A stretch of 64,000 bases of DNA, taken from Psammoneis japonica. Taxonomy: Eukaryota. The number at the start of each line of letters is the position of its first letter. Positions within the stretch are counted from its first letter, which is position 1. This document shows positions 1-64,000 of the stretch, one piece after another. A model generated the notes under the pieces. It was given only the letters and a program-made list of their open reading frames with translations, made no database searches and was not told the origin of the DNA. The stretch covers positions 372,001 to 436,000 of the forward strand of contig QPGO01000041.1 in NCBI GenBank assembly GCA_008632985.1. The letters are read 5' to 3'. A program made the translations under genes and the position numbers.

Positions 1-2750
1 CATTTCATGTGGCTTCTCTGCCACTTTTGGTGCTTTGAATGTCCCAGGAGGAGAGCATCCATTGCAAGGAGTGATCTCCTCAGTCAAAGTGGAGCTTCAT
101 CACAAGCAAGAAGCAATTTACAAAAATGGGCTGGCATGGAAAGGGCCTGTCAAAAACACTGTTTCAAAATTTCAATTTGTGGAAATCATGCCCTGCAATG
201 AAACTGCAGAGAGAGGATTGAGCAACACAATGTTCAGAATTTTGAAATCAATTGGAAGTTTGACAGGGGATGAAAATGGTCAAATTGTCACTCTGCAAGA
301 ATTGCCAAAAACTGCCGCCTCATGGTGTGCAGCAACCAACTCACCATTGAGCATGTCTCCACTCTTGTTGACCCAACAAGCTCATGAAGTGGGCCATTGA
401 AAGCAATGACCCCCCAGGTTGGCAAGTGCTTTTCTCAGAGCTGCAGAGTCCCTGTGTCCCGTTGTTGGTGATCTGCATGTGGAGATGCATGTTGTTGCTG
501 GCATGTGCTCACTGTTTTATGGCAGATTCCTCTGACCAATCCAAGTGGCACTTGGTTGAATGTGCATCCAATGAAACACAATTCCCTGCCACAAAACATC
601 TTCAAAAATGCTGGCCTTGGTTCACAACCAGCTCACCTGACTCATCTGTTGTAAATTGAGTGAAACTGTGACCAAAGAGAAAGGATGTTGTCAGTGGACA
701 GTGGTTAGAAAGATGAAGAGAACACTGGCTCAATGAGACCCATGGCAAGACAAATCCTCATCAAAGACCTGTCTCCAACAAGCCAGCTCCTGTTGATGTG
801 GCAATGCCACTGCCAGCCTGGAATCATTCACAGAAAAGAAGAGAAAGTCATGTGTCAGACAAGAAGCTGGACTTGCCATGAAATTTTTTGATTGGGGCAA
901 AAGCCACAAGGAGCACAAATGGGCAATGGGAATTGGCAATCCTTGCCCATGCAAGATTCTCAGAAAGCACCTTCTTCCATTTTTTGCCAGTTTCAGCAAA
1001 CCAAACTACATTGATTTATTTGCTGCATCCATGGATGCCATCAGTCCAATTCAAGCTTGGTGGGGGGAAAGCACAAGAGGTCTGAACTGGTGTGCATCAT
1101 GCACAATGCACGCAATTCAGGGAGTGGGGTTAAACAGAAGAATTGCAGTGCACCTTTTGCATGACTGTTGCCAAATTGTGGATGAAAAGGGAAGGATGAC
1201 ATTGGAAGAAGACAATTTCCTCTGGAATGATGCACCTGTTGCCATTTTCAAGTTTGGCATGGAAGCAAAGAAGAGTCAAAATTCACAGAATTCCACCTCA
1301 GAGTCAAACGCAATCAGTCGTCTTTTTGGAGATCTGGCCAGGAAACTGGCAGCATGATCTCAAAAACATGTGCAACATGAAGAAAAGAAAACATGGTAAG
1401 ATTGAATTGGAGGGTGGTGTTGACAGTTCCAGAGAAGATGCCACAGATGATGATTGGGACCCAGCAGGTGCTGACAATCAAGACAGCATTGCAAAGATGT
1501 GCAAGTGCATTTGCATCCAGTGGTGAAGAAAGGAGAAAGTGTTGCTGCAAATGGACTCCACAAGCTCAAGACCTTGAAATTCAACAAAAACAAGCAAGTG
1601 CACAAGCACAAGAGATCATGTGAAAGGTTGGCAAAGACAGGAGAGCTGGGTGCTGGATGTAAAAAGCACACAGAGAGCCACTCAAGTGCCAAATCTTCCA
1701 CTGCCTTCTCAGCCCTTGAAATTGCTTGAAGACTGTTCAGGAAATGAGGAGAGTGAGGCCCTTGCATTTCAAACAATCCAGTTGCTGCTCCCAGATGGAA
1801 AGGAGCCACCAAGACATTTTCAAGTTGAGGGAACGGCCCGGCGGAGGGGCACATGTCCAAAGTGGGAACAGGTGTGGTGCTGCCAATGACATTCTCATTT
1901 TGCTGAAGTCATCATGACAGAAAAACAAGCCGGGGAAATCCATGGGAGGAACAAACAAGCAAGGAAGAAATCCAACAAGCAGAAAAAGGATGAAGCCAGC
2001 ATTGAAGAAGAATTCCTGGTGACTTGAAAGGATGAGATGGTTCACACTGTTGGGTCTGAGAAGCAAAAGAACAGGGAGGCGTGCACATGGTTCTGCAACA
2101 ACATCCTCAAATGCATGAAGAGCACTGCGATGTGGAGAAGGATGGTGGAGTCTGGCAGCACCAAGGCCACAGATCTGGCTGCGGCAAGCAACAAGGCACT
2201 GGCCCTGTTGATGATGGAAAACTGCTGGAAGATTTGGGAGCACAAGACCACGCAGGAGGGAAATGAAGAAGGGAGCGAAGAGGGGAAACCGGCACCATTG
2301 CACACAGACCCGTCACAACAGTGTGACTCTTGGAAGGATCAAGGAATGCTGTGCTTCAATGCTCTTCTTGGGGAGGCAAAGGAGTGGGCATTTTGACATG
2401 TGGCACACTGACGGAAAGAAAAAGGAGAGCAAAGGCAAAGGAAAAAAGGGAAGAAACACCAAAAAACCAGCGGATTTGGATGCAAGAACGCAAGCAACAA
2501 TGGAGCTTTCTAGTGACTGCAAGGAGGATGACAATGTGACAGATGCACCAGCTGACAAAAGAGATGAGAAGGAAGACAAAACTGGCCAGGAACACAGCGA
2601 TGGAAGCAAAGAAAGCAAAACTCCAGTGCCAGCCAATTGGAGATGTAGAACAACTGGGACCACAGCATTGACTTGGTGTTCATTGAAAATCAATGTTAAA
2701 AAGCAAAAGCAATGTGCCATTGTTGATTGAAAAGAGTGGACTGAATTCAT
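1..2750 (+). mobile_element. Decayed, probably transposon-derived coding remnant
   Basis: Fragmented protein-like ORFs, e.g. 2037-2396 'ASNKALALLMMENCWKIW...PLHT...SWKDQGMLCFNAL', reminiscent of TE-associated accessory ORFs. Family not identifiable by eye. Confidence 0.3.
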
Positions 2751-3383
2751 TGCAAGCATCACTTTAAATGCAGAAACTGCTGGCATGTGATGTGAAACAA
2801 ACCAATGACATCAATTGTCAGCTTCTGCAGTGGAGGAAGGCACACACAGAATGTGAAAAGAGGGGGGCTTTTTGAAAGTTAAAGTTGATTTCTTGCAGTT
2901 AAAAAGGTGTCTCCACAGCTGATTTAATTGACTGTCACAGATTAAAATTTGTTGCCACAACTAACAAGGTTTAAAACCACAAAAACATTGACTGTGAAAG
3001 GAACAAAAATCACGGTGACAAGGCATGTGATGATCACCACATTGCGGCCTCTGATGTTTCAGCAATCATGCCAAAACACATTGACAGACACAACTTTGTT
3101 CCACCACACAACAACACAGAATCTGTTTCAGATGCTTGTGGCCATGCAAAACCAACAGACTGGTGACTGCTGAGAGAAGCATGGCTCTGGCTAAATGCCA
3201 ATGACATTGTTGGCTAATTTGCTGCTTTACAAGAAGGGCAATTTTGGCAAAAATTGTTGGTTGCAGCATTTCAATCATGGCAAACTGCTCTGAAAATGAC
3301 AACTGTGGCATTTGAAGGTCAGAACAACACAGGCAAAGTGAAAGGAAATTGCAAAATCACCAGCCGTTTTTAAAAATGCCGGT

Positions 3384-5625
3384 TTGCACCAGTGCAGAAG
3401 AACAGCATTTCAAGAGAAAGTCCAACATTTCCTTTTCATCAAGCTCCACATTTTTCTCTACCATGACAGACTCTTCCAGGCAATCTTGAAACCGCTTTGG
3501 ATGCCAAGTCCCATTGAAGTGATCAAGAATCAACATGACGGCTGCAGTCTTCAAGTCTGTGCTGCTCGGGAAGCAACAGTCATGTCCATTTGTCATGTGA
3601 GAGAGACCATCCAGTGCTCGGAACAAGAGCTTGTATCTTCCCACTTCCAATGACATGCAGAGGGAGAAAGTGCCACCAATGCCAACTGCTTGCAGTGTTC
3701 CACCCCTGCTGAACACATTGACTCACTTGGGTGGCCCCATGCGGAGCAGTGGCAGATGCTCCATGCCTCTGTGGACCTGCTGCCTGCTGATCCTCCCATC
3801 ATGGCAGGGTTGTGCCGCCAGAAGCAAGACATGCAGATCCATTGAAGGGACCAAGAATCTTGGCTTCAAAACCATGACAGATTCTCATCATGAATCGATC
3901 CCACGAGTGGTCTGCGGAGCAAATGTAATCGTCAGCATTTTGATCACTGCCGTTGCCATGAATTGTGATGAGATTCGTTTGCATTGTGACACAGCCAGCA
4001 CAGGTCACGTCAGTCCCCAGAAATCCTCCTGGAGACGCGCTCATTGGCGACAGAGCAGACAATGTTGGAATCAATTCCAGCTGCGGAGAAAAACAAGACA
4101 ATGCTTGTCCAGGGGAGACAATTTTTCGTTCCTCCTCGGAAAGGCTCTTTAGGAATGAGCGCACTTGGTTCTCTTCCACCAACCTCAGGCGATTCGGGTT
4201 CATCATAAAAGCACTGACAAGTTCTTTGGTTTCCCATTCCATGCTCAAATGTTGGTCCCAATTAATCGCAAAGTCCTCTGGAATGTCATGCGAGCCCATT
4301 TTCGCTTTTAGTGTCATCACCTCATCAACAGCAAGCATCGGTTGGATGCCCTCCAGCCCATTGAGCGTCAGCAGGAAATTCGCCGCCGCTTCGTTCGGCG
4401 TCAAAATGACAACAACTGTGTTTCTTTCACGGGTTTGAGTTCTGATGGTCCGCGCAAGGTCTTCATCTATTTGATTCTTTCCATTCGGCATGAATTCATC
4501 AAGAAACAGACAGGACGCAGGTTTTCCTGGACGGCTGGCCAATTTTTCGGCAATCAGATCAATCAATCCAGAAGGGGGGTGTGCACAGTCGTGAAGATCA
4601 AGGAGATTCAACACATTTTCAAGGTGAGGTGTGCCTGAATCGGCTGGACTGAAGCAAGTGCCATTGTTGACCCCCCTCTTGATGTGTTTTTTGATGTGGG
4701 CCACACAGGCTGTTGTCTTTCCCATGCCAGGAGGGACGTGGGTGACGCAGACGGTTCCTGGACATGTGCATCGCTCTTGAATGCATTGCAAAATTGGTGA
4801 GCTGGTGCAATCGGGACGTTTTTTGCAGTGGTTCACGTCACAGGGAAACAAGAAGCAGTTTTCAATGCCCTTCATGACCTTCTGCTTTGCACCCGGGTTG
4901 TTGTTCTTCCATTTGGCATGAAGTGCTTGATCAACTCCTTCTTGCGTGAGTTTCATCAGCACCATTGACCCGAGCACTTCGCCTGCACACATGAGGGTGG
5001 CTGTTGCAGCAGTCCCCAAAAATGAATGTTCACAGAGCTGAATCGACAAGTTGTGTCGCAATCTCAGACGGCTGTGTTCGTTTTCTTTTTCATTTTGTTC
5101 ACATCTCACATCTGCCATCGTGCACATTTTAAATTCAATGGAGCCATTGAGATCTGAGCATTCATTTGCCATTGTCATGACACACATGTTTTTTAACAAC
5201 AAATGTTTGTGAAGATTGTTTCAAGCGTGCTTGCGTCAATTTGAAATTTTCGTGGTCCGCGCACTCGATGCATGGGATCTGGAATTTGGCCCCGCAGCAC
5301 AGCCGTCCGCGCCATCACCCCCCCCTTCACCCTGAGCCAGATGACAAAGACACCTTCTACATTGATGCACTTTGCAGATCATTGGACAACAGAGCACTCT
5401 TTTTTGTGGGTGGGGAAGAGATTGTCTCAAAGCAACTGCAGCCAACGTTCTTGTTGACAAGAGTTCTTTGCCCCAAATCAGAACAAGAGCATTTCAAAAG
5501 AAAGCCCAAGATTGCTTGTTCATCAAGCTCCACATTGTTGACCATGACAGGGTCTTCCAGGCAATCTCAGATCCACTTTGGTTGTCAAGGAACTCTGTTG
5601 AAGCTGTGGTCTTCCAAGTCCAAGA
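3384..5625. repeat. Diverged direct repeat pair (about 3384-3560 and 5468-5625) flanking the ATPase pseudogene
   Basis: Shared 'ttcatcaagctccacatt...ccatgacag..tcttccaggcaatct'. Minus-strand peptides NVELDEKEMLDFLLKC vs NVELDEQAILGFLLKC. Confidence 0.8.
3799..5202 (-). pseudogene. P-loop AAA+/STAND-like ATPase, hypermutated paralog of 48665-49609
   Basis: Walker A PPGMGKTT, Walker B LFLDEF, VVVILTPN. Only one Tyr in 467 aa. Lies in a TpA-depleted block. Confidence 0.7.
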
Positions 5626-5904
5626 TGAACATCAAAGCCTGTGTGCGAGGGGTTGATGAAACACAACACCCTGCAGCCAGAGCTGATGTTTGCAAGCATG
5701 CAATCCTTGCCAACTTGTTGTGCAAGTTTCCCTTCACCACCAGTCAAGTGCAAAAGCAATGTGTGCTCTGAAAATCAGCAGCACAGTCACTCCATTGCGG
5801 CCTGTTCCAGCTCCAGGTGCTCCGAGTGGGTTCGATTCCCATCATTTGCCCATTTTCAGGTTTGGCGCAATTAATTTTTTTCCAAATCCGTTTTTTGCCA
5901 AATC

Positions 5905-5955
5905 GAAGGGTGAGTGCACACTTTACATGCATTTTCGGGTGTGCACTCACCTTTC
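5905..5955. repeat. Hairpin/inverted repeat in a probable element terminus
   Basis: Perfect 13-bp arms ggtgagtgcacac (5909-5921) and gtgtgcactcacc (5939-5951), extendable to 17 bp with one G-T pair. Confidence 0.8.
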
Positions 5956-7001
5956 AATTTTTGAAACGATCAAAATTGAAGGAGTTCAATGAGCCAAACT
6001 GCGCAGAAATTCGGCCTCTCGTGTGATGAAAAGCAGATCACCTGGAGCTGGAACAGGCTTTGCCCTGTGCTTCAGACTGAAAGATGAGCCATTTTTCACC
6101 ACACTGGTTGCCATTGAATGGTGAAACAAAACAGCTTTGGAGGGACATGAGCTGGTCAGTGTTGAGGTCAAGAAAACAGGAACAGAGTCATTTGTCTGGT
6201 TGGTCTCAAAGGGTCTCCCAGGATGTGATTTTAAGAGCTGGCATTGACTTGCTGTCATGCATCATGGGGGGTCTCAAGATTGACAACATTCTGCATGTTG
6301 CAACAGCAGAGGTCATGATTGGCATCACAGAATGCCATGACCAGGTCTTCTTCTTTGGGCCACACAAAAAGTCTCGCCATCATGAGATCTTTGGCATCAA
6401 AATCTGCCTGAGTCAAGTGCAGCACCTTGTGGCCAAGTGTTCCCAAGTCAAAGGTCTCAGAAGCACATGACATGGCTTGGCTTGCAATTTCAACAGCATC
6501 ACCCACTTTGTTGGCATTGTCAACAAACCCTTGGTTGCTTGCGCGCACACACCAAGTCACGGAGTGTGGCGCCAACAAGCTTTTGTTCCTCTGACAAGAG
6601 TTTGTTCATTCTTTCTTCCCTTGTGACAGAACAGAAAAAGTCAATGGGACAAAGTCAAGGTGCCTGGTTGTTGCTTCCAACCCAAGTCAATGGAAAGAGC
6701 TTGGAAGCGACAATGAGTCCAGCAGGCACATCGTGGATCTACAACACGTCATCACCGGCAAAAGATTTGCAATCTCTCATCTCCAAACCCAGCCCAAGCA
6801 GCCTGTTGCAGGGCTCATCCATGGATGAAAAAAGAGAAAGTGCGCTCATTGTGAGACAACCACACATCCGCCATTTGCTTGGCCGCTTGCAAGGCTGCCA
6901 CACCATGATCTCTTTGTTGCTGGCTGCACAAAGAGGTGAGTGAGTTTTGTGGCAGGCGTCAATGAAATCATGACCAGAGGTGCACAGCTGTGAAAATGCT
7001 G

Positions 7002-7446
7002 TGCAACATGCAGCTGCTGATGAGAGTCAATGCATCACGGCGACGTGTTGCAGCCTTTAAATGTCAAAGGGCATGACAAAAACAACCTTTTGTCTGCATG
7101 CACACTGCACTGTGAATTCACAGCGGAGTGGTTCATCGCAACCATCAGGCAGGAGGCCAGGGGTTCGAAACCCTGAGTGGGAGTTGTCTGCAGCAATGTT
7201 GATCACTGTCGAACGCGTAAAACTCTGTGCAGTTCTGCATGTTCCTTCGCACATGCCCACACTGTTCCGCCAAAACCGTGCAGTGTCAGCACACATCAGT
7301 GAAGAGCCGCATGGACGCATGACACATGGGGAGGAATGCAACACACAGCTGCTGATGAGAGTCAATGCATCATGGCGACGTGTCACAGCCTTTAAATGTC
7401 ACAAAGGGCATGACAAAAACAACCTTTTGTCTGCATGCATGCTGCA
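7002..7446 (+). repeat. About 110-bp direct repeat (7002-7109 and 7337-7446)
   Basis: Shared 'cagctgctgatgagagtcaatgcatca...gggcatgacaaaaacaaccttttgtctgcatgca'. Confidence 0.9.
7114..7183 (+). pseudogene. tRNA-derived sequence (tRNA pseudogene or SINE head)
   Basis: A-box-like cagcggagtgg (TRGCNNAGTGG with TA>CA) and B-box ggttcgaaacc with a T-arm-like stem. No clean acceptor stem. Confidence 0.4.
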
Positions 7447-7777
7447 GCTGGCGTGTTTGTTCCCATCAAAAATTGCTTGTGACACTCCATTGAATGAATC
7501 TGTGCTGGTGAATGATTGTTGGCTGCAACAAACAATGAGCCAGAAGGGTCTGCCAAAATGTTGCCAGCAAGCGTGCAGACAGATGTTGCCACAGCAGCTC
7601 CCTCACCAGCCTGGGGGGACGAGACAGCCGAAGCTCACAAGGAGATGACACATCTGATCAGATCACCCAGAAGACTGGCTGAGGTGAGCTTTTGTGCTGG
7701 ATTGCCATGGTGGTGAGTTTTGGTGTGTCAAACTGTTCACCCGCTTGTTTGGAAAAAACAGAAAAGATGCTGCTGCT

Positions 7778-8990
7778 CTGCTTGGCAGGCACAAAGCAGC
7801 AAAGCAGGCACATGCAAGAGCGGCTGCATCCTGAAAAAATTGTCCCTGATGAATTGACAGATGCAATTTTTCACACTGCAGCTGCGCGCTCATCAGCCAC
7901 TCATTTTTGCCATGTGTTGTGTGCACTGGTGCCAAGAGCAGAGCTGTCAGAGTGCAGACAACGCTGCTCTGGTGTGTGATCTCCCCCCCCTCTCATTGCT
8001 TGTGGCGCATGTGCAGAGACATGAACTCCTCACTGGAGAGCACACACTTGTTGTGCCAAGGGGGGCAATTTTGCAAGCACAAGCTGTGGCACATCTTCTT
8101 CAAATTGCTTTTGATCAGCTGATGTTGGCTTGTTTTGACGNCACGCAATGGCGTCGACTTCGGACCATTTTTCACGGTTTAAAAGGCATAAACGATTGAT
8201 ACACTTGAATCAGTCGAATATATTGAGGAAATATACATGGTAATAGAAAAGAAATGGTCCTTAGAGGCAAATTGTGAGTGAATAGAGGCTCAATTGTTGT
8301 TGCTGACAGATTTAGCATTATTGTGCCGCGCTGCAGCCTTCAACAAGCATTTTCACTATTGTTGTTGATGACACAGACTATATCAAATACGGAGATCCTG
8401 GTCATGACATTCAATTTTCCATAAGGCTGAAAAAAGTGGGCCGTCATGGTCACTGAAAGCCATGGCCGGTTTGGCTGTTTGTTTGTTCGAGTTTATTCTG
8501 TTTATTTTACTTAGAAGCCATTGATATGATCAATTTTATTAAATATGTACGGTGTTCAATAAAGCATTAAAAAATTATTTTTTCTGCGAAAAGGGGCATG
8601 TGCGCGCCACCTAAGTCTGGAACAAGTCCTGCTTGGCAGGCACAAAGCAGCAAAGCAGGCACATGCAAGAGCGGCTGCATCCTGAAAAAATTGTCCCTGA
8701 TGAATTGACAGATGCAATTTTTCACACTGCAGCTGCGCACTCATCAGCCACTCATTTTTGCCATGTGTTGTGTGCACTGGTGCCAAGAGCAGAGCTGTCA
8801 GAGTGCAGACAACGCTGCTCTGGTGTGTGATCTCCCCCCCTCTCATTGCTTGTGGCGCGTGTGCAGAGACATGAACTCCTCACTGGAGAGCACACACTTG
8901 TTGTGCCAAGGGGGGCAATTTTGCAAGCACAAGCTGTGGCACATCTTCTTCAAATTGCTTTTGATCAGCTGATGTTGGCTTGTTTTGACA
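7778..8990 (+). repeat. Near-identical 360-bp duplication (7778-8140 and 8629-8990) across a scaffold N
   Basis: Copies differ by 3 substitutions and 1 homopolymer indel. The first copy ends exactly at the N at 8141, so this is probably a haplotype or contig overlap. Confidence 0.85.
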
Positions 8991-9399
8991 ATGAGTTTTG
9001 TGCTCTTTTTGGCACCAAGCAGTGCTGCCGGAGAGCCACGCAGCTTCGTTGTCACATGGATTGGCAATGCCATCAGAAAGTGGCGATTTATGATGAATGT
9101 GCAATTTTGCATTTTGAAGAGCATGTTGAGAGAAGCCGCGATGAATGACGAAATTGAAAATGATGTTTTTGTGTCCCCCAGGCATTCCCCACGGCATTCA
9201 CAAGGTTTCGAGGTTTCGGGTCTCCGATCCACCCCTGACCAGGGGTGAACAAGAAATGACTGTGACGTGGCCGTTTCTCATCACAACATTCTTCGAGTTG
9301 ATGACGACTGATGACTTGTGACAACGCGAACTTGCGAACTTGTGTGCTTGCTTGTGAACGCACTTTATCGTTGTGTTGCTGTGAAAAGAGTTTCGAAAA

Positions 9400-46469: not shown

Positions 46470-46517
<48 letters not shown>

Positions 46518-49609: not shown

Positions 49610-49694
49610 CGTATTTGTGACTGTTATATTAGTTATTACAATACACTGGTAAGGTTATGGCGATGCTGATGAGCGAATGTACTTGCGTACCATA

Positions 49695-50015: not shown

Positions 50016-50043
50016 TACCGCCCGTAGTCTCTACAGAGTAGGT

Positions 50044-52650
50044 TCATTCGCTCGTATGGTACGTACGTAGGGCCCTACGCACATACAGCGGAGTCGTGGG
50101 TCGTCTGTCCACCGACCCAATCTTGAAATTCTTTTCACGCCACGTCGCCCCGAGTTTCAAGCTCGTTGCAGTGAGGACCACAGGCGGTCTGTGGATGTTG
50201 GAACAACCATAGATTACTTCAGCAGCACATGGTTGATTGTTGTGAAGATGGTCACCCCTGAAGCTTGTGCCAGTCTCTGGTGCAAGTGCACCGGAGAACC
50301 TCACTTTGGTGCACTCAGCAGATTCAGTCGTTGTTCTGTGGTGGCTCACAATTTGGTCGCTGGTGGTTTTGTGAAGACTGTTGACTGAACTCTTGTTGCT
50401 GATCATCAGCAGATGCTCTCTGCTTTGCATTCTGTCTGAGGTGTTGGTCTGGAGCAAGTGGACATCTCCAGCCAGTGCACGAGGAAGACACTCGGAGCAG
50501 CTTTGTGGATGCGCGAGCGCTTCGGCTGGTGGCGTGCACCGTTGATGTGCATTTTGACTAAATGTTTCTACATGTGCAAACTTTTTATGAACTCCAATTT
50601 GATAATTGGCCATGTGTGAAGATTGAAAGATCAATTTCCCAGCTTTCCAGTGATCATGTGTTGTTGCTGGGGTTCCGACCAATTGTCCTGCGAAGGGGCC
50701 GCCAGCCAAAAAGTCCCTGAATTGCTCCTGACCACTTGCATCTCCCTCCTCAGTCAGTTCATCAACTTCAAAAGTTGCAATGCCATCCATGTTGACAAGA
50801 ACAGGAGCATCAATTGGCGTGTGGAGACCCCTTGGTTGATGGGGTCATCTTCTGTGGTGAGTGAGCCAAGTTTGCCATCAACTCCTGGACACAGCGGAGT
50901 GCATTTCAAGCTTCTTCACTTTGTTGCTGCAATCATTTGGCTCAGCCTTGCACTGGTGTCCCAGATCTTTCTCTTCCCACTGCCTCTTGCTCAGTTGGCT
51001 CTGACAATCTGACTTTGTTGGGTCGGTTGGTGCTGCTGTCTTGGGTGCACACTGCAGGATGATGTTGTCCCCCCCCCTCCTCTTGGCAATTTGAGTGATG
51101 TCTCGGAGTCTCTTGGTTTGGAACCACAAGCTGTGCCTGACATTCCCCCAGTTTCCTCCAAAGAAATTGAGAAATTCTGATCAGTGCTGTCTCCCATGAA
51201 CTCATTGAGCAGCACTCCCACACCTGTCCCAACAGTCAACAACTCTTTCAAGAAGGCCGCTTGGGAGAGGAATTTGTTAAAATGCATCTTTCCAATTGAG
51301 TCTGATCTCAGTTAGATCAACCCTTTGGCAAGGACAACATTCATCATTTGTTCACTTCTGAAGCCACTTTTCATCATGTCTTGCTTCCCCTTTGGAAGTC
51401 TGGTTTCTTGCACGACTTGGCTTGTGGGAGAGAGTGTTTTTCCATCCACTGGCCAAGTTGAAAATTGGCACGACCTCTGCTGCACAGTGCCAGATGCCTT
51501 GCATCTTCAGGTTCTTCTTTGCGAATGTGGTGGTGTTGACTTCAACACCCCACATGGATGCCCTGTGTGTTGGGCATCCAAGGAAGATCTCAACAGGGAT
51601 TGCACATGCCAGACCATGGCTTGTCTTCTCCATTTTGATTGCAACATGGCATCCTTAGTGCGATGGGTTGGCCGTTTGCACATTGGTGCACATCTCGTGA
51701 CATGACAAAAGTGTGTCCTTTTTGGATGGCAAGGTTGATTGTAAAGTCATCTCTGCTGTCAAACAGATCTTCCAAAATGGTGTTCCGGCCCATTGTGCTG
51801 GTCACAAGGTGGAGGAAAACTTTAAAGCTTGCATCTGCTGCAGAAATCACCCATTGGTTGAGGTTGATCCAGCCAAGATGCACAAGGCACTGACCAAAGA
51901 TTCTAAGTGCAGCTTTGTTCTCATTTTTGACAGGCGAATCACATTTCATTTGTGTTGAATTGTCGCTTGTCGCCTCAGACTCTCGTGGATGTTAACAAGT
52001 TCTTGTTCAAGAGCCATCACCTGGTTTTGGACAGCACATTCCATCCTTTTCCATCTTCCATGGGCATCAATGATTTTTGTCTCTGTGGTTTGAGCCCCCT
52101 CACTCCAAAGCTGCTGCCCAGATTGACTTTGTGCACTGGGTCCATAACTTGCAGATGTTGCACCCAGTGCACGACATCTTCCCAGTTGATGATGATGCTG
52201 CTGAAGCATGTTGCACGATGAAACACAATCCAAATTTTGTTGGCATGTGCACCTCCATCCAGTGTGGGTTTGGAGTTGCTCAGACTGGTTGCAACTTTGG
52301 GGACACCCCCAATCCACACAACTGGGATGATGGGGGTTGGTTGCAGTGTTGCTGACAGCTTGCCCAACATGCTTTCCACATTCCAACAATTGTTGAGATC
52401 ATGTGTCCATTCCTGCCGGTGCTCCAATTTCCACTGGCGCTGAAAGTAAAATTGGTTGCTGAGCGTGTTGTGGAGGCAGAGGGTGATGGGGACGATGGTT
52501 CGCAAGTGTTGTTAATGTCGGGAAGCTCATCCTTTTCAAAATCTTCTTCTGTCAAAGCTGCAGGTGCTTGATCCTCCATTTTGTTCTTTGTTTCTTTTGT
52601 TTTGTCAACATAACTGTCTTTAACATTTTGTGAAATCTTCCAATGGGAAG
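50044..52650 (-). pseudogene. Large decayed gene of unknown family; body TpA/CpG-depleted
   Basis: Begins with KMEDQAPAALTEEDFEKDELP in normal-composition DNA. Continues as fragmented ORFs (52017-52505, 51590-51949, 50044-50790) in depleted DNA. Confidence 0.5.
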
Positions 52651-53799: not shown

Positions 53800-54255
53800 G
53801 TTATGAGCACATTTCACGGAGCGCGCGGTGCGCCCTGCAACTGGCGGCATTCCCGCACCCCATTCTTCGACTCTGCCCAGGCCTGGCACCCCCAAGATGC
53901 CTCTCCTCCGTTCCACTCTGCCGCCACTGCAGCCATCTCCGTGCCTCCCTCTGCTGTTCCCTTCCATTCTGTCTGGGCTCTTCAAAACTCAATGTTTTAA
54001 ACCAAGTCCAAGTCCAGCTGCAAAACGGCACTTCATTGCACACGGCATTGAAAAAGCTCAGAGGCGGAGACAATGCGATGCGATGGCGGAAGACATGCCT
54101 GTTGTGGATGAATCATCTGGTGATGAGCTGCCACTTCCACCTGCAGCTCCTCCCATGCCACTGAGCTTGTCTTTTCTCTGCTGAGAGCTTCTTGTTCAAT
54201 GGCAAAAACCAAACAAGAGCTCTGCCAGACAAGATCATGAGACACTCTCTCTGTG

Positions 54256-54290
<35 letters not shown>

Positions 54291-55690
54291 TGCATGCCAT
54301 GACAGGTCAGTCCAGGCACTGAGCAGTTGAAAGTTTTTTGGGTTCGACTGATCTTCCATTCTCCTCTGTGCTTTCCAAAATGTGGGCCCCGCTTTTTTGT
54401 CTGGGAGATTCCTCCTTTTGTTGAAAAATTGTCCCCTTGAAAACCCCAAGCCTGGCTGCAGTCTTCAAGTTGAAAGTTGACTGGCTGCCATCAAAAACAG
54501 AGAAAACCATGGGGTCATGCACCACACAGCATGTGGACAATTTGCCAAGAGCATTGCAGGGGGGGCTTCATTGTGGCTGTTTGTGGTTCAGGCAAGAGCA
54601 CGGCATGACATCTGTGCGCGCAAAGAGGCAGCGATGATTCTTCACCCTCCACACACATGGTGCAGGCAGTGATTTCATTTTTGTTCTCTTCTTGGCTTTT
54701 GTTTTTGCACAACTGTCCATCACTTGTTCCTGCTTTTGCCTCAGGAATCTCCGCATGTGCATGGGATGCTCACTGTTGCCAAAAAATGGCTGCAGCAACA
54801 AATGCGCCCAAGAGTGGATTCAGAGCATTGGGCAAAAATGTGTCGCTGACTTTCTCACTCACAATGTTGCCACTCATGCAAGTGTGCACTCATGCCAGCA
54901 AGGTGGGCTGGCAACCATGGCACTTGAGGTGATCAACAGAAGCGTGAGAATGTGAAAGGGGCGCAGGGGTGGCAACAGCAAGTCGAGATGGCAGCATCAA
55001 TGCAAATTGGCTTCCTCCAACAAGAGGCTCTTGAGAGCCAACCAAACAAAAAATTGACCATCTTTGCATGCCTTAACTTGTGCAGCATGTGCACAGTGCT
55101 TTCAGACACTTCTTTTGAAACTGTGAGAGAGAACATTTTGGTGCGTGCCCTGTGGAAGATGGGTGCCTGCACACAACAAAAAATCAACCAAGGAGCATGA
55201 GAGAAACACAAAAAAGGGTTGCATTGGGTGCAGATGGAAAAGATGACAAACAGTTTTTTTTCACAATTCCACTTGACAAAGGAAAAATGATGACTGGACA
55301 TGTGCAGAGTCCCACTGCACGTGAGCCCTTGTTTTGCGGCTTGACACATCATGGCAATGTGGTGGTTGGACAGATGGTGAGAAAGACTCCTGAACACTGC
55401 TTGAACAAACTGCTGCACATGCAACAACAATCTGGGGGATTTTTTTGGAGAGCTGTCTTCCAAACAATGCACTGCACTGTCCATCTGTGCATTTGGGTCT
55501 CGTCCAGTGCACAACTTCTGCCTGTGTTTCAGAAAACACAAACGACAAAACATGCAAACCTTGGGATTCTGTGCAGCGTTCACCAAAACCCCAAACACAC
55601 TGATTGACAGATTGTTTCAGCACAAATTAAACAGCACTGCATGCCAAAGATGCTCCCCAATCGGAAATGAGACTGTCGAAGAAAGTCATG
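53800..55690 (+). mobile_element. TpA/CpG-depleted element remnant, possibly a MULE-like transposase
   Basis: Strong depletion. RAVFQTMHCTVHL resembles the MULE (Y)CxxH motif. (CT)n tract at about 54244-54289. Confidence 0.35.
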
Positions 55691-56445: not shown

Positions 56446-57549
56446 TCATATGAACTTGTCAATAAGTTTCAATAGTCTTCGAAATAGCCACACTCTTGGC
56501 TGGACGGCAACTTTCCTTGCTGGTGCGTCAAAGGCTTGGAGCCAAGGGTCCAGATCCTCCTGCAAACCGACTAGTCCGTCGAGGGAATACACATGAATCT
56601 TGTTCAACCCTGCTTGCTTGGCTGCACCAATCTGAGAACGGACTTCCTCAATGTCAGTGATTGGGTCTCCCACGACGATCCCAGCATCTCCAACGACTCC
56701 AATATCAATTGCGGCTCTGTCTCCAAAGTACCGCACCGCATCTCTTCCATAGGTATGCACAAGATAGGGAGTGAGGCCATCTCCCAGCAATAACTCGGCA
56801 ACTGTGGTATACGCCAAGAAGGAAACCTCGTCCCACGGAATTCCGTCCACGGGTGTATTGAACATATCCTGGATTGTGGAATCGCGTTTGAAAGTCTTCT
56901 CTTTGAGATCATCCAATACAAAGGGAGCGGTTGTCACCATTACTTGAAAATCTATCGAGTGAAGTTCATCCACCAGTAATTTGAATTTCTCCTTTGCAAT
57001 GTCATAGGCATCCATGTCTCTGTTACCCTGTAGCACTGCAAAGAATCCCGCGAGATCTCCTTCATCCACCAACATTTGTAGGGTCTCGGAAGTTTGAAAA
57101 TCAGTTTCCATGTCGACTACGATCCATGTAATGGGCAACTCTAATTCTTGAATCCAACTGGCCAGTTCGAGGGCTTTTTGTGAAAAGAGATCCACATTCT
57201 TTTCATTGGGCCAATACCCGTCCTCTTCCCTCAAAGTGAGCCACAACCGAACTTCGATTCCTGCCGTGCAAGCCAATTCCTGCAAAAGGGTGGCATACTC
57301 TGTATCACCAATGTTGACACTGGGAATTCTCTGATAAATCGAAATGCCATTTCGTTGCAAGGCCGGGATTTGTGAACGAACCTCCTCGGGTGACAGAAAT
57401 TCGCTCCAAACCGCAAATGGCGAAGGATTCAGGGGGAGACAATCTTGTTGTGCGGTGGGTTCCGCACAACAACAAGTCGACAACAAGGACAAAACAAGCA
57501 ACAAAAGCATCTTCCTCTTTCGAAAGGAACAAGAGGCTTTCATCTTCAC
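56446..57549 (-). CDS. Secreted protein with a probable TIM-barrel (glycoside-hydrolase-like) fold
   Basis: Intronless 367 aa, signal peptide, alternating beta/alpha pattern (VRLWL, GYWPNE.N, WIVVDME, WDEVSFLAYT, IHVYSLDG). Confidence 0.65.
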   Translation of the reverse strand: MKMKASCSFRKRKMLLLLVLSLLSTCCCAEPTAQQDCLPLNPSPFAVWSEFLSPEEVRSQIPALQRNGISIYQRIPSVNIGDTEYATLLQELACTAGIEVRLWLTLREEDGYWPNEKNVDLFSQKALELASWIQELELPITWIVVDMETDFQTSETLQMLVDEGDLAGFFAVLQGNRDMDAYDIAKEKFKLLVDELHSIDFQVMVTTAPFVLDDLKEKTFKRDSTIQDMFNTPVDGIPWDEVSFLAYTTVAELLLGDGLTPYLVHTYGRDAVRYFGDRAAIDIGVVGDAGIVVGDPITDIEEVRSQIGAAKQAGLNKIHVYSLDGLVGLQEDLDPWLQAFDAPARKVAVQPRVWLFRRLLKLIDKFI

Positions 57550-57966
57550 AGTCCTCTTGTGTTCTCGATTAGCTGAGCACTGTAACTCTTTCAGGCCTCA
57601 ACACACTCCAATCAACCTCTGTGTTCTCTGTGGTGCGTGTGCGGAATTTTGATTTGGGCTTCGGCATGCAATTTTGAAACGAAAAATTCTGTCCGTCGCG
57701 CAGTTCGATTGTTCACTCTTGGATGAGTCGTGTGGTCGCGGATCACGGTTCAACCGACCGAGCTTGGCTTTCGAAGCGCGCAGCGCGCAACATTTCCCGC
57801 CATTTCTTCTGTCCATCGCTCGTGTTTCCGTGCCCTCCACTCGTCTTTTTGACTCTTTTCAAACGCGACGCAACAAGGAGACTCTCTACTCTACGAAGAG
57901 ACAAAGAGAACAAAACCTTTACTCTTTAGCATCCACAACCCTCGGGTACTGTAAGTAGGAATTGCC

Positions 57967-62322: not shown

Positions 62323-62899
62323 CTCGACTCGTCTTGCTTATTGCGTTAATATGACATGAGCGAGTCGTCGCCAATGGCGCTGTGGTCAAAAACGGTCGTT
62401 TCTCTGAATATGATGAATTGAAACAGACTGCAATATGGGCGTGTCGTTCCCAATCAATATAACGCTGCTGCGTGTCTCTCTGTCTCTTTATCTCTCTATG
62501 TTGTCGGCGATCGAAATGGACAGCGATGCGTTTCGTCAAAATGGACAGAAGTATGGTTTAGCGTCGTGGCACGATGCTGAGAGTTTCCACGACCAGCTAC
62601 AGTACGTACGGTGGTTGGCGTTTGCAGTCACATTTTGTCGAAACCCGTTTCGGGATGGGTCATTATGGTATGGTGGTTACGCGTCGCCGCGGTCTGTCTG
62701 TACGACTGTTTCTACGCCATCTTGGATCGGCATTACATCAGTCATTGATCAAATAATGACCGGACGAACATTGACGTACTGTATTTGAAATATTTTTGTT
62801 TTAAAAGACGAATAAGATTTATGCAAGTATTCATATTCATGAGTATAAATCTTTGTATGATGTGAATGTGTCTTTCAACATATGCATGGGTCATTGTTC

Positions 62900-64000
62900 A
62901 GTCCCGCACGACAGCTCATCACTCATTTTCTTCGCGAACCGACGCGACCACCAACGACTGAACTTTCGTTCTGCCCATTCTCGCGGGACACCTTTGATTT
63001 TTGATGAGACTGCGCACCAGGGCATCTCCAGGCGCAGGGAGGCGGGGGTCTATCTGTGCGATTCTTCCCACACAATTTTTGTGCACCAGTCTTTGTGAAC
63101 CAGACCAAATGACCACAAGAACATCATTTGAAACTGACAAAAATTGAAGAGAAAGTGGGTGAAAGAAAACAACAACTCCTCACTGCTGTTTGTGTGGCAG
63201 ATGAGGCACCGGGATGACGAAGTGTGCATTTGTGCCCATGGGCAAAAAGTGCCCTGCCATGCAAAAGGCACACGGAAAACTGTGCCCTGCTGGGTGGTTT
63301 GCTTCTTCGCAGAGCGTGCCCGGCAAGCGATGAGTGCCAGCCACGTGCACAATCCCGCGTGCTCTGGAGGCCCTTTGACAGCAATTCCCTCCAACTCGAG
63401 TTTGTTTTCAAATCATCAAGAAAACACACAAGCAACCATGAGCCATGAGCTGCTCTCCTGCCCACTCCCACCCCTTCCACCAGCCACAACACAAAACACC
63501 TGCCAGTGCAGAAGAGTTGCTTGCATCGCACAGCAAAGAAGGCAATGACATTTTTGGCCTGATGGCTTCTCAAAAAGCACCTGCTGCTGGTGCAAGCAAC
63601 AAAAGGCTGCTGTTGTTACCAAGGCAGATGCACTGGCCGTCAGGTGGTGAAGGACATTTTTTGTGCTTCAGTTTCTTGGAGTGCATTTGTTTTGCCTGAA
63701 TTTGCCCTCAGTCATGTCATTTTGTTGAAGTCTGACTCTGTCATGCATTTTCAAATTAAATGCACTGGCACTCTTCAAAGGCAAACCTCTGGAAGGAGCA
63801 TTCAGCATTTTTGTTGCTCGTCAATCACCTGCATTGAGTGCCAACAAAACAAGTCATCCAAGGACAAAGCGTGGCGTGACTGCTGCAACGAATCAGTGAG
63901 CTCCAAGAATGATGCCATCAAGTTGGGAGTGGTGATGGAAAACATCATTTTGCTGTTGTTCCACAAAAGAAAATTGTGAAAAGATGCAGCTGGTGAGTGC
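62900..64000. other. Start of another TpA-depleted block
   Basis: TA nearly absent. CpG thins out with distance from the boundary. Confidence 0.8.

What the first reader, a model, noticed from the sequence alone, without database searches (positions are those of the whole stretch)
1..64000. Candidate repeat-targeted TpA>TpG/CpA hypermutation system (reverse of RIP)
Seen: about nine blocks holding TE remnants and pseudogenes are almost free of TpA and usually of CpG (2 TA and 2 CG in nt 1-600 by hand), while interleaved genes have both at ordinary levels. Established: CpG loss follows from 5mC deamination, and fungal RIP converts CpA to TpA, so it raises TA. Neither process removes TA. Inference: a second, region-restricted process mutates A to G in the TpA context on both strands. 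Candidates are (a) polymerase-eta-type error-prone repair (WA>WG, TA hotspot) recruited to methylated or silenced DNA, (b) a TadA/ADAT-like DNA adenosine deaminase, since TadA favours TA, or (c) a modified adenine at TpA. I know of no described genome-defence pathway with this signature.
Basis: partly seen in the sequence, partly recalled or inferred. Interest (0 to 1): 0.92.

Follow-up and report, generated by a model that had tools for sequence, protein, structure and literature searches.

The report
TpA-erasing hypermutation blocks in a diatom
About 40% of this diatom-like genome window consists of sharply bounded blocks in which nearly every TpA, and many CpGs, has been mutated to TpG or CpA, a mutation pattern so far reported only once, in an unrelated alga.

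Summary
Eleven sharply bounded segments (25,940 of 64,000 bp) have TpA o/e 0.02-0.10, against 0.59 outside them. CpG is usually depleted too (0.23-1.17), and the TpG+CpA surplus of 1,645 nearly matches the missing TpA (975) plus CpG (828). None of 100 Markov simulations came near this.

The pattern is mutational, not native. Two long ORFs inside blocks are dead members of ordinary, TA-normal protein families. At 16 family-conserved Tyr (TAY) positions they carry Cys (TGY) or His (CAY) at 14, and one lost its stop codon to CAA. An old internal duplicate differs only by TG<>CA and CG<>TG. Both DNA strands are hit equally. AA, AT and TT are untouched, which argues against a Pol-eta WA signature.

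Contigs built independently from a public run reproduce the blocks. That run is from one sample and may be the assembly's own source.

"Repeat-targeted" and "TE remnants" are not supported. In the 20 kb laid on reads, six of eight fully depleted depth bins are single-copy and two are about 2-5x. Adjacent multicopy repeats, including a MITE-like element, keep normal TpA. No TE or viral domain was found.

The signature matches the TpA>TpG/CpA hypermutation measured in Bigelowiella natans (2026 preprint). So this is a new lineage for a just-described kind, here coupled to CpG decay. The enzyme is unknown, and adenine deamination is inferred.

The parts
1..8179 (.). LOW block 1: TA o/e 0.07 (41 TA), CG o/e 0.33
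   Evidence: HMM segmentation
3802..5220 (-). 473-codon open frame: a dead, hypermutated member of a P-loop + C-terminal CaaX protein family. The homologous part is about 3982-4998. The family stop codon is replaced by CAA, so the frame runs on.
   Evidence: 80 relatives at E<=1e-3, best 2.3e-60. Tyr-consensus columns read C,C,H,H,H,R. CAA follows CVTM. tblastn places the match.
7002..7446 (.). Internal duplicate inside block 1 (7002-7109 and 7337-7446). The copies differ only by 3 TG<>CA double mismatches, 1 CG<>TG and one 2-bp indel.
8616..9365 (.). LOW segment: TA o/e 0.02, CG 0.53
15054..18871 (.). LOW block: TA o/e 0.06, CG 0.27. Holds the longest TA-free run, 17229-18802.
28462..30781 (.). 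LOW block: TA o/e 0.10, CG 0.60
29913..31142 (+). 410-codon open frame: a hypermutated member of a rare, unnamed family whose C-terminal part I read as kinase-like (no Pfam hit supports that). 4 relatives at about 37-51% identity. 9 of 10 Tyr-consensus columns are now C or H, with R>H and A>V changes of CpG type.
31222..32633 (.). LOW block: TA o/e 0.06, CG 0.38
32904..33673 (.). LOW segment with little CpG loss: TA o/e 0.07, CG 0.89. Holds the ORF 33187-33699 with a DUF5710 match.
45119..47802 (.). LOW block: TA o/e 0.02 (4 TA in 2684 bp), CG 0.23. Single-copy depth in run X1.
50094..52610 (.). LOW block: TA o/e 0.10, CG 0.32. Depth about 88-115 in run X1.
53804..55627 (.). LOW block: TA o/e 0.02, CG 0.32
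57339..57886 (.). Short LOW segment with normal CpG: TA o/e 0.06, CG 1.17. It overlaps the 5' end of the apparently intact ORF 56446-57597(-).
62883..64000 (.). LOW block running off the window: TA o/e 0.04, CG 0.47. Partly at about 5x depth (63344-64000).
44001..45118 (.). Contrast, not part of the blocks: a high-copy repeat (depth about 4400 against about 60) with normal TA o/e 0.73 and CG 0.97. It abuts the LOW block at a boundary sharp to a few bases.
49680..50086 (.). Contrast: a MITE-like element with 43-nt terminal inverted repeats (93% complementary). It is multicopy (its depth bin reads 3249) with TA o/e 1.12 and CG 1.58, and lies next to the LOW block that starts at 50094.

Best explanation
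The blocks are stretches of a diatom-type nuclear genome: former genes plus unidentified DNA. Where depth could be checked, they are mostly single-copy. They went through a saturating, domain-restricted mutation process that turns TpA into TpG or CpA (A:T>G:C transitions at 5'-TpA, hitting either strand at random). A slower CpG>TpG/CpA decay, of the kind expected from 5-methylcytosine, acts on the same domains.

Shown here:
- the direction of change;
- the dinucleotide specificity;
- the two-strand symmetry;
- saturation in every block whatever its CpG loss;
- sharp boundaries;
- independence from copy number.

Inferred:
(i) The targeted domains are CpG-methylated, silenced chromatin. Diatoms are known to have binary methylated blocks.
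(ii) The TpA step is enzymatic adenine deamination (A>I, read as G) by a TadA/ADAT2-like deaminase recruited to such chromatin, as proposed for Bigelowiella natans.
(iii) The result is permanent inactivation of whatever lies in the domain.

My odds: about 0.9 for the mutational, TpA-specific, region-restricted core. About 0.5 for targeting by silent or methylated chromatin. About 0.4 for an adenine deaminase as the agent.
For: Mass balance. The blocks lack 975 TA and 828 CG relative to the flanking density and have 1,645 extra TG+CA. GC content hardly differs (0.486 against 0.467).

Specificity. AA 1.27, AT 0.84 and TT 1.28 in the blocks are not depleted the way TA is at 0.06.

Polarity.
- At 16 columns where at least half of the relatives have Tyr, the two block ORFs have Cys or His in 14 (5 C, 9 H), Tyr in 1 and Arg in 1. 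At 13 Cys/His-consensus columns they never have Tyr.
- The codon-level test gives TA-type changes 16 forward against 3 reverse in the block copies, and 14 against 10 summed over 11 control rows.
- The block copy is the only one of 80 family sequences with C/H at all 4 Tyr columns.
- The relatives have 2-4% Tyr; the three longest block ORFs together have 0.3%.
- The family's stop codon after the CaaX box reads CAA.

Internal duplicate. 7002-7109 against 7337-7446 has 3 TG<>CA doubles and 1 CG<>TG and no other substitution. In a normal 884-bp paralog pair, 21 of 77 events are of these types.

Both strands. TG 2735 against CA 2711. Tyr>Cys 5 against Tyr>His 9.

Two separable rates. TA o/e is at most 0.10 in all 11 segments while CG o/e ranges from 0.23 to 1.17. 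CG<0.5 occurs in 33 of 43 TA-poor 500-bp bins and in 0 of 74 normal bins. All 4 recent differences seen inside blocks are CpG<>TpG/CpA: 2 between the 99% duplicates and 2 between the window and X1 contigs.

Precedent. Mutation-accumulation lines of B. natans gave 230 of 231 mutations in two viral regions as A>G/T>C. The paper says all of these fall on TpA, and it reports TpA-depleted, CpA+TpG-enriched clusters (preprint Results).

Diatom methylation. It is mostly at CpG and, in Cyclotella cryptica, forms binary blocks up to 30 kb (passages of PMC5124317).
Against: - No methylation, expression or chromatin data could be examined. No RNA run was listed.
- No genome is held, so no deaminase candidate could be sought, and genome-wide copy number is known only for 44001-64000.
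- The reads laid are Logan contigs from one sample with unrecorded library type, possibly the assembly's own source. An independent platform was not truly tested.
- Only two block ORFs could be polarised. About three quarters of their differences from the family consensus are ordinary divergence (24 of 107 are strict TA- or CG-type).
- The ancestral dinucleotide of the TG<>CA doubles could be TA or CG.
- Two short LOW segments keep normal CpG, so a methylation link is not obligatory.
- One LOW segment overlaps the 5' end of an apparently intact gene, so a block is not always dead DNA.
- No TpA mutation in progress was seen. With TpA gone, the process may be extinct here.
Confidence: 0.7

Rival explanations
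1. The TpA loss comes from a modified base rather than a deaminase. One option is a thymine modification (5-hydroxymethyluracil or a J-like base made by a TET/JBP enzyme). Another is N6-methyladenine at TpA. Either would be laid down in silent chromatin and would mispair or be mis-repaired, giving T>C or A>G.
For: The data cannot tell whether the A or the T of TpA is the mutated base, because the dinucleotide is its own complement. The sharp domain limits and the co-location with CpG loss fit any chromatin-directed base modifier. Preferential hmU at TpA in dinoflagellates is recalled, not checked here.
Against: No such modification is known to me in diatoms (recalled; not searched specifically). 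Replicative polymerases read hmU and 6mA largely correctly (established knowledge). Near-complete conversion (TA o/e 0.02-0.10) needs a strongly mutagenic lesion.
Confidence: 0.12
2. A repeat-induced (RIP-like) trigger. The blocks were duplicated when mutated, and homology sensing, not chromatin state, directs the process. The partners have since been lost or have diverged.
For: One block ORF belongs to a multigene family with other members in the window. Part of the last block is at about 5x depth, and other copies there carry TA or CG where the window has CA.
Against: Six of the eight fully depleted depth bins are at single-copy depth, about 55-115 against about 60 at 80% likeness or more. 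Repeats at 8-70x depth beside them have TA o/e 0.50-1.12 and CG 0.97-1.81. An 884-bp pair at 84% identity is unmutated. The blocks are not similar to each other at DNA or protein level. Full conversion of two copies would leave them over 90% alike, so lost similarity cannot be blamed on the process itself (my arithmetic).
Confidence: 0.08
3. Error-prone repair by a Pol-eta-type polymerase (WA>WG) recruited to methylated DNA.
For: TA is the hottest WA motif for Pol eta, and A>G dominates its errors (established knowledge of somatic hypermutation).
Against: AA/TT is not depleted but slightly higher in blocks (1.27/1.28 against 1.14/1.17). AG/CT rises only from 0.92/0.91 to 1.01/0.98. Pol eta also makes A>T and A>C, which would not give the near-quantitative TG+CA mass balance.
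Confidence: 0.04
4. Sequencing or assembly artefact. Modified bases in these regions are miscalled, so the true DNA still has TA and CG.
For: The two differences between the window and X1 contigs inside a block are both CpG in the reads against TpG/CpA in the window. This could be consensus error at 5mC. All runs found are from one sample.
Against: De Bruijn contigs built independently from run X1 at word depth about 60 reproduce more than 9 kb of blocks with 0-2 differences. A strand-symmetric miscall at a palindromic site would give conflicting calls from the two strands, not a clean TG or CA, and would create CG as often as it removes it, yet CG is depleted (inference). The same assembly keeps TA in repeats that abut the blocks.
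Confidence: 0.03
5. Native composition or selection. The blocks are foreign or special DNA that always avoided TA and CG, for example virus-like dinucleotide avoidance.
For: Many viruses and transcripts suppress both CpG and UpA (established knowledge; papers seen only in the listings).
Against: TA o/e of 0.02-0.10 bars Tyr codons. Family-conserved Tyr is replaced by Cys/His at 14 of 16 columns and a stop codon is lost. So the sequences were once TA-normal and are now dead. No viral relatives were found: one family had none in IMG/VR, the other only two 28-32-residue Walker-B matches, and PHROGs gave none.
Confidence: 0.02
6. RNA-level A-to-I hyperediting (ADAR-like) followed by reverse transcription and insertion, giving edited retrocopies.
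For: ADARs prefer U before the edited A. This is noted in the B. natans preprint's Discussion.
Against: Editing of a sense RNA would give only Tyr>Cys (A>G on the coding strand). Tyr>His (T>C) is at least as common, 9 against 5. TG equals CA in the blocks. There are no poly-A tails or reverse-transcriptase remnants.
Confidence: 0.01

Closest known systems
TpA-specific hypermutation of integrated giant-virus and virophage DNA in Bigelowiella natans (Mettrop et al., bioRxiv 10.64898/2026.01.13.699255; abstract, Results and Discussion read)
   Same: The product spectrum is the same: TpA>TpG and TpA>CpA, A:T>G:C only, on both strands. Both are restricted to regions. Both leave a long-term footprint of TpA-depleted, CpA+TpG-enriched clusters and CDS. 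[quoted passage not shown] Its low-TpA CDS have TpA frequency 0.0018; here it is 0.0041. Targeted sequences are mostly unannotatable in both.
   Different: - Lineage: a diatom-type stramenopile here, a rhizarian there.
- No mutation rate was measured here.
- The targets identified here are dead copies of host-type gene families, with no viral or TE domain found.
- Depletion is near-complete in every block here. The B. natans giant-virus region still has Rho_TpA 0.45.
- The blocks here also lose CpG. The preprint's main text never mentions CpG.
- The flanking-base bias seen here (TTAA spared, RTAY erased) is not reported in the preprint's main text. Its supplements are closed.
Repeat-induced point mutation (RIP) of Pezizomycotina fungi
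   Same: Both are region-limited, saturating transition hypermutation that kills coding capacity. Both show a dinucleotide-specific footprint and an association with DNA methylation.
   Different: The chemistry and direction are opposite: RIP turns CpA into TpA and raises TA and AT content. RIP needs duplicated DNA. Here the multicopy repeats are untouched and most depth bins inside the blocks are single-copy. GC content is unchanged here.
CpG decay by deamination of 5-methylcytosine in methylated domains (vertebrates, plants; CpG-methylated repeat blocks of diatoms such as Cyclotella cryptica, PMC5124317, passages read)
   Same: CpG>TpG/CpA with a matching TG/CA surplus, confined to blocks that alternate with CpG-normal, gene-rich DNA. 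All four recent differences seen in the blocks are of this type.
   Different: It explains only the CpG half, and it cannot remove TpA. Methylation itself was not observed here.
TadA/ADAT2-ADAT3 tRNA adenosine deaminases and their DNA-editing relatives (ABE editors; amphioxus BjADAT2 as cited in the preprint)
   Same: They deaminate A that follows U/T (U33-A34 in tRNA), giving A>G. This fits the TpA requirement.
   Different: No gene was examined here. The natural enzymes act on tRNA loops. Recruitment to chromatin domains and action on both strands of genomic DNA are unproven in any alga.

Membership tests
TpA>TpG/CpA regional hypermutation (B. natans type) | Changes are almost only A:T>G:C transitions | tested here: met
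   Indirect but polarised. 14 of 16 Tyr-consensus columns are now Cys/His, and 0 of 13 go the other way. TA-type codon changes are 16 forward against 3 reverse. The TA deficit is recovered as a TG+CA surplus.
TpA>TpG/CpA regional hypermutation (B. natans type) | Mutated sites are TpA only; other A/T dinucleotides are spared | tested here: met
   In blocks TA o/e is 0.06, while AA is 1.27, AT 0.84 and TT 1.28.
TpA>TpG/CpA regional hypermutation (B. natans type) | Both products, TpG and CpA, arise (both strands hit) | tested here: met
   TG 2735 against CA 2711 in blocks. Tyr>Cys 5 and Tyr>His 9. No strand runs: runs/expected 0.995.
TpA>TpG/CpA regional hypermutation (B. natans type) | Confined to discrete regions, seen as clusters of TpA-poor, CpA+TpG-rich windows | tested here: met
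   11 segments with sharp edges. Bimodal TA o/e. 0 of 100 simulations reach the clustering.
TpA>TpG/CpA regional hypermutation (B. natans type) | De novo mutation rate in the region raised by orders of magnitude | not testable with these tools
   This needs mutation-accumulation lines or population data. Only contigs of one sample were available.
TpA>TpG/CpA regional hypermutation (B. natans type) | Targets are integrated viral or other foreign DNA | tested here: not met
   No viral or TE Pfam domain in the 277 block ORFs scanned. No real relatives in IMG/VR or PHROGs. One target is a paralog of an intact gene in the same window. Most block DNA remains unidentified, so a foreign origin for part of it is not excluded.
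Fungal RIP | C>T at CpA, raising TpA and AT content | tested here: not met
   TpA is removed, CpA is raised, and GC is unchanged.
Fungal RIP | Acts on duplicated sequences (roughly over 400 bp at 80% identity or more) | tested here: not met
   The multicopy repeats and an 84% paralog pair are unmutated. Six of the eight fully depleted depth bins are single-copy.
5mC-driven CpG decay | CpG deficit with TpG/CpA excess in the same regions | tested here: met
   CG o/e 0.39 against 1.01. CG<0.5 in 33 of 43 TA-poor bins and 0 of 74 normal bins. R>H, A>V and R>C changes in the block ORFs.
5mC-driven CpG decay | The regions are cytosine-methylated | not testable with these tools
   No bisulfite, EM-seq or signal-level data were available.
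Pol-eta WA>WG mutagenesis | Both TA and AA lose A (the WA motif), with some A>T and A>C | tested here: not met
   AA/TT is not depleted. The mass balance leaves little room for transversions.
ADAR-type RNA hyperediting fixed by retrocopying | A>G on one (sense) strand only | tested here: not met
   Tyr>His is as common as Tyr>Cys. TG equals CA.
TadA/ADAT-like DNA adenine deaminase system | A deaminase gene with the HxE...PCxxC motif plus evidence that it acts on DNA | not testable with these tools
   No genome is held. No deaminase domain among the 90 normal-region or boundary ORFs of the window that were scanned.

The most novel reading that the evidence does not exclude
Diatoms, and perhaps the wider SAR group given the rhizarian Bigelowiella, may have an enzymatic genome-defence arm that reads silent, CpG-methylated chromatin. 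It would irreversibly erase TpA there by deaminating adenine in DNA on both strands, with a 5'-T-A-Y preference that spares TTAA. That would make it a mirror image of fungal RIP that needs no repeats. It would kill any silenced DNA, host gene copies included, and would let CpG o/e serve as a clock for the age of each silenced block.
Probability: 0.3. Interest if true: 0.88.

Novelty: new member of a known kind. Interest (0 to 1): 0.72.

Why it matters
- If TpA-erasing hypermutation exists in diatoms as well as in a chlorarachniophyte, it is not a curiosity of one alga. It would be a widespread eukaryotic way of disabling DNA, chemically opposite to RIP and to APOBEC editing.
- Diatoms include genetically tractable species with known CpG-methylated blocks. 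The enzyme and its targeting rule could therefore be found by knock-outs and mutation-accumulation lines, provided tractable species carry the signature.
- The coupling to CpG loss seen here points to silent chromatin, not foreignness or repetition, as the address label.
- A natural DNA adenine deaminase would interest base-editing work.
- For annotation: TA-free blocks give long spurious ORFs, because only TGA stops remain. They hide pseudogenes from domain searches, so gene callers and repeat maskers will mislabel them.

Tried and rejected
- Whole genome: none is held. No genome-wide scan, TE consensus or deaminase search was possible.
- Earlier scan notes: three look-ups returned nothing.
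Organism and source names for the family relatives could not be obtained.
- Pfam on 133 block ORFs of 90 aa or more gave one hit, DUF5710. Unmutated relatives P0201, P0202, P0123, P0126 and P0129 have no Pfam family and, for the four tested, no PHROG.
- Viral origin. Alignment A2 had no stretch conserved enough to scan with. A3 gave 95 pattern matches but no relative. A4 gave two 28-32-residue Walker-B matches at E 2e-4 and 3e-4, which I do not count as relatives.
- The DUF5710 ORF 33187-33699 had no homolog in the length range 94-300 aa. The TA-only block could therefore not be polarised.
- Blocks compared with each other and with the normal DNA gave no informative paralogs, apart from one 159-bp stretch at 73% with two TA(normal)<>CA/TG(block) sites.
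- The 84% paralog pair 47704-48567 / 52517-53364 turned out to be two TA-normal genes, useful only as a control.
- Tetranucleotide mass balance, meant to tell which flanking base matters, was too noisy for a firm result. 4 of 5 informative classes favour an effect of the base 3' of the adenine, T-A-Y > T-A-G > T-A-A.
- Strand-run test: no clustering of TG against CA (pooled z -0.39). Power is low because only about 30% of TG/CA is derived.
- Expression: no RNA holder was listed for 44001-54000. Run X3 laid nothing.
- Literature: five searches found no paper on TpA-depleted blocks in diatoms or stramenopiles, and only the B. natans preprint for the signature. The library lacks most subscription journals, and the preprint's supplements are closed. 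Its per-site contexts could not be compared.

Full report
OBSERVATION

The window (47.5% G+C, 40 N) has TA o/e 0.38 and CG 0.74 overall, but the shortage is not spread evenly. A two-state HMM on the event "T is followed by A" cuts the window into 11 TA-poor (LOW) segments totalling 25,940 bp and 10 normal segments totalling 38,060 bp.

Every LOW segment has TA o/e 0.02-0.10. Examples are 4 TA in 2,684 bp at 45119-47802 and 2 TA in 1,824 bp at 53804-55627. Normal segments have 0.39-1.17. The longest TA-free runs are 1,573, 1,221 and 1,076 bp.

I ran 100 first-order Markov simulations that keep the window's own dinucleotide content. The longest run never passed 439 bp. No 1-kb bin had 7 or fewer TA, against 14 observed. 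The variance/mean of TA per kb never passed 1.48, against 11.1 observed. TA o/e in 500-bp bins is bimodal, with few bins between 0.15 and 0.35.

WHAT ELSE CHANGES IN THE BLOCKS

Pooled o/e values in LOW against normal DNA:
- TA 0.06 against 0.59
- CG 0.39 against 1.01
- CA 1.67 against 1.18
- TG 1.69 against 1.18
- AA 1.27, AT 0.84 and TT 1.28, so these are not depleted
- G+C 0.486 against 0.467

In counts, the blocks are short of 975 TA and 828 CG relative to the density outside. They hold 1,645 extra TG+CA, which is 91% of the two deficits. TG (2,735) equals CA (2,711).

TA o/e correlates with CG o/e (Spearman +0.73) and inversely with CA/TG (-0.77) across 127 bins. CG o/e below 0.5 occurs in 33 of 43 TA-poor bins and in 0 of 74 normal bins.

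The two losses are separable. TA is gone in all 11 segments, whereas CG o/e ranges from 0.23 to 1.17. Segments 32904-33673 (0.89) and 57339-57886 (1.17) have hardly lost any CpG.

THE ORGANISM

No genome is held. An uninterrupted 442-codon homoserine dehydrogenase gene (26928-28256, minus strand) has its 120 best relatives at 55-78% identity. The best full-length relative is at 73%. All 15 that carry an organism name are diatoms.

The normal segments hold ordinary, intron-poor genes: homoserine dehydrogenase, a GT2 glycosyltransferase, an epimerase, a GTPase, a 2OG-Fe(II) oxygenase, CRAL/TRIO, FUSC_2 and DUF6824. Among the 90 normal-region or boundary ORFs scanned there is no transposon protein and no deaminase domain. 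I therefore treat the source as a diatom or a close relative not itself in the protein database.

ARE THE BLOCKS REAL DNA?

One public sample holds the stretch (runs X1-X3; library not on record). Logan's contigs of X1 are built independently from that run's reads, at word depth about 60. They cover 45119-46463, 46525-47892, 50372-52687 and 54318-58896 with 1, 1, 0 and 2 differing letters.

So the depletion is in those reads, not a product of the given assembly. Because the sample may be the assembly's own source, this is not a test on an independent platform.

WHAT THE BLOCKS CONTAIN

No TE or viral domain was found.
- Of 133 stop-to-stop ORFs of 90 aa or more in the blocks, one hit Pfam (DUF5710, 33187-33699).
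- Of 144 of the 168 ORFs of 55-89 aa, one gave a sub-threshold TILa match.

The blocks do not resemble one another at DNA or protein level.

Without TA only TGA can stop a frame. From the TGA frequency I expect a mean frame of about 37 codons, so frames of about 200 codons are unremarkable. Frames of 473 codons (3802-5220, minus strand) and 410 codons (29913-31142, plus strand) are not.

The first long frame. It has 80 relatives at E<=1e-3 among 1.84 billion cluster representatives (best 2.3e-60, 61% identity). These are about 340-residue proteins with a GKT[TS]AC P-loop, an LILDDF Walker B motif and a C-terminal Cys-aliphatic-aliphatic-Met/Leu end. I read that end as a CaaX box; the label is mine. 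An intact, TA-normal paralog lies at 48665-49654 in the same window.

The second long frame. It has 4 relatives at 37-51% identity, with no Pfam family. I read its C-terminal part as kinase-like.

DIRECTION OF CHANGE

Tyr is encoded only by TAY, Cys only by TGY and His only by CAY.
- At the 16 alignment columns where at least half of the relatives have Tyr, the block copies carry Cys or His in 14 (5 Cys, 9 His), Tyr in 1 and Arg in 1. At the 13 columns where the family consensus is Cys or His, they never carry Tyr.
- Relatives have 2-4% Tyr. The three longest block ORFs together have 0.3%.
- Among the 80 sequences of the first family, the block copy is the only one with Cys/His at all four Tyr-consensus columns of the larger alignment.
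- After the family's C-terminal Cys-x-x-Met, where relatives end, the block copy reads CAA and runs on for 60 more codons. This is what TAA>CAA would give.
- A codon-level test used within-codon context only. TA-type changes from family consensus to block copy number 16, against 3 in the reverse direction. CG-type changes number 8 against 2. Eleven control rows (normal family members treated the same way) sum to 14 against 10 for the TA type.
- Only 24 of the 107 consensus differences are of these two types. The rest is ordinary divergence.

A SECOND, DNA-LEVEL WITNESS

Inside block 1 an old duplicate (7002-7109 and 7337-7446) differs at three adjacent-pair sites, all TG in one copy against CA in the other. 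It also differs at one CG<>TG site and one 2-bp indel, and at nothing else. In the TA-normal 884-bp paralog pair used as control, 21 of 77 substitution events are of these types, and 1 of 5 double mismatches is TG<>CA.

TG against CA at the same site is what two copies show after an ancestral TA (or CG) was converted independently on opposite strands.

At 63865, in a part of the last block at about 5x depth, other copies in the run read TA where the window has CA. At 63827 they read CG where the window has CA.

WHICH PROCESS IS STILL RUNNING

The four most recent differences seen inside blocks are all CpG<>TpG/CpA. Two are between the 99% duplicates 7778-8139 and 8629-8989. Two are between the window and X1 contigs, at 45667 and 46772.

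No TpA change in progress was seen, but almost no TpA is left to change. TA loss is complete whatever the CpG loss. So I infer that the TpA process is fast and saturating, and that CpG decay is slow and continuing. This is inference, not measurement.

STRAND AND CONTEXT

Both strands are hit. TG equals CA, and Tyr>His (T>C on the coding strand) is at least as frequent as Tyr>Cys. This excludes editing of a sense RNA followed by retrocopying.

The order of TG and CA along the blocks shows no runs (runs/expected 0.995, z -0.39). Power is low.

The 107 surviving TAs are not random. 26 lie in TTAA, 4.9 times their share among TAs of the normal DNA. ATAT and GTAC each keep 1 (0.13 and 0.12 times). 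Scaled by length, about half of the expected TTAA sites survive, against 1-2% of RTAY. This is my arithmetic.

A one-parameter-per-base model fits these values roughly. Product asymmetries in 4 of 5 informative tetranucleotide classes point to the base 3' of the adenine (T-A-Y > T-A-G > T-A-A) rather than the base 5' of the T. The mass balance at this level is noisy. I offer this as a lead only.

NOT REPEAT-DIRECTED

In the 20 kb laid on reads, single-copy genes sit at depth about 60.
- Of the eight depth bins with TA o/e 0.13 or less, six read 55-115, one reads 131 and one reads 300. Bins that straddle a block edge read higher.
- The high depths lie in TA-normal DNA that abuts the blocks. 44001-45118 has depth about 4,400, TA o/e 0.73 and CG 0.97. 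49337-50093 has a depth-bin value of 3,249 and TA o/e 0.92. The flanks 53339-53803, 55628-56006 and 62677-62882 fall in depth bins reading 485-796 and have TA o/e 0.50-0.81.
- The element at 49680-50086 has 43-nt terminal inverted repeats (93% complementary) and looks like a MITE.
- The 84%-identical pair 47704-48567 / 52517-53364 is also unmutated.

Two fully converted copies of one element would still be more than 90% alike. The single-copy depth of the blocks is therefore not a by-product of the mutation. Depth was available only for 44001-64000.

COMPARISON WITH WHAT IS KNOWN

Five full-text searches found one relevant work, the bioRxiv preprint 10.64898/2026.01.13.699255. I read its abstract, Results and Discussion and searched its text.

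In mutation-accumulation lines of Bigelowiella natans, 231 of 302 nuclear mutations fell in an integrated giant-virus region and a virophage region. 230 of those 231 were A>G or T>C, and the paper says all of them fall on TpA. Rates there were about 6e-7 per site per generation, roughly 1000-fold above background.

The authors also found 324 CDS with TpA frequency 0.0018 and 124 clusters of TpA-poor, CpA+TpG-rich windows. They proposed an ADAT2-like DNA adenine deaminase.

The blocks here meet their window criteria easily: Rho_TpA 0.06 where they require 0.43 or less, and Rho_CpA+TpG about 1.68 where they require 1.52 or more. The preprint's main text mentions neither CpG nor diatoms.

For diatoms, passages of PMC5124317 state that methylation is predominantly at CpG. 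In Cyclotella cryptica it forms a binary pattern of hypermethylated repeat-rich regions up to 30 kb and unmethylated gene-rich regions. That is the geometry seen here, but I have no methylation data for this window.

MECHANISM

Shown:
- a TpA-specific, two-strand, region-limited, saturating A:T>G:C process;
- CpG>TpG/CpA decay in the same domains.

Inferred: the domains are silent, CpG-methylated chromatin, and the TpA step is enzymatic deamination of adenine in DNA.

Rivals:
- A Pol-eta WA>WG process is disfavoured, because AA is not depleted.
- A modified thymine or adenine that mispairs cannot be excluded, since TpA is its own complement.
- Native TA avoidance is contradicted by the Tyr and stop-codon evidence.
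- An artefact is unlikely given the independent contigs, and because a strand-symmetric miscall would not yield clean TG or CA.

VERDICT

Its "repeat-targeted", "TE remnant" and "undescribed" parts are not. This is a new lineage, and a more extreme, CpG-coupled form, of a hypermutation type first reported in 2026.

Noticed in passing
window 7778-8989: Two 362-bp copies at 99% identity (7778-8139 and 8629-8989) flank a single N at 8141 and a 436-bp TA-normal, 37% G+C island (8180-8615). This looks like an unresolved assembly join or a heterozygous insertion, not biology of the blocks.
   Followed up: partly
window 49680-50086: MITE-like element with 43-nt terminal inverted repeats (49693-49735 / 49975-50017, 93% complementary). 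Its depth bin in run X1 reads about 3,250 against about 60 for single-copy DNA. TA and CG are normal.
   Followed up: partly
window 44001-45118: AT-rich (40% G+C) repeat at about 70x single-copy depth, with many variant contigs and internal joints in the run. It has no ORF with a Pfam hit and ends within a few bases of the LOW block. Its element type is unknown.
   Followed up: partly
window 3802-5220, 48665-49654, 52846-53568: An unnamed protein family of about 340 aa, with a GKT[TS]AC P-loop, LILDDF and a C-terminal CaaX-like end. It has only 80 representatives in 1.84 billion clusters and no Pfam family, but several loci in this window. 47704-48567 and 52517-53364 are 84%-identical duplicates, each next to a LOW block.
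   Followed up: partly
window 35071-39528: A cluster of three paralogous ORFs (35071-36423, 37643-38668, 38512-39528; 33-37% identity) with weak ARM-repeat (LRRK2 ARM) matches.
   Followed up: no
window 56446-57886: The short LOW segment 57339-57886 (TA o/e 0.06 but CG 1.17) covers the upstream region and the first 86 codons or so of an apparently intact 383-codon ORF. That stretch includes a signal-peptide-like start. A hypermutated stretch may therefore be part of a working gene.
   Followed up: partly
LOW segments, whole window: The surviving TAs are concentrated in TTAA (26 of 107), and 81 of 107 lie in NTAA/TTAN. RTAY sites are almost extinct. This suggests a flanking-base rule for the mutator.
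   Followed up: partly
window 20652-20690: A 39-N gap inside a TA-normal region.
   Followed up: no
window 29913-31142 and relatives P0201-P0204: A conserved protein family, which I read as kinase-like, has only four relatives in 5.8 billion clusters and no Pfam model. The relatives have a further N-terminal region of about 130 aa that is absent from the block ORF.
   Followed up: no
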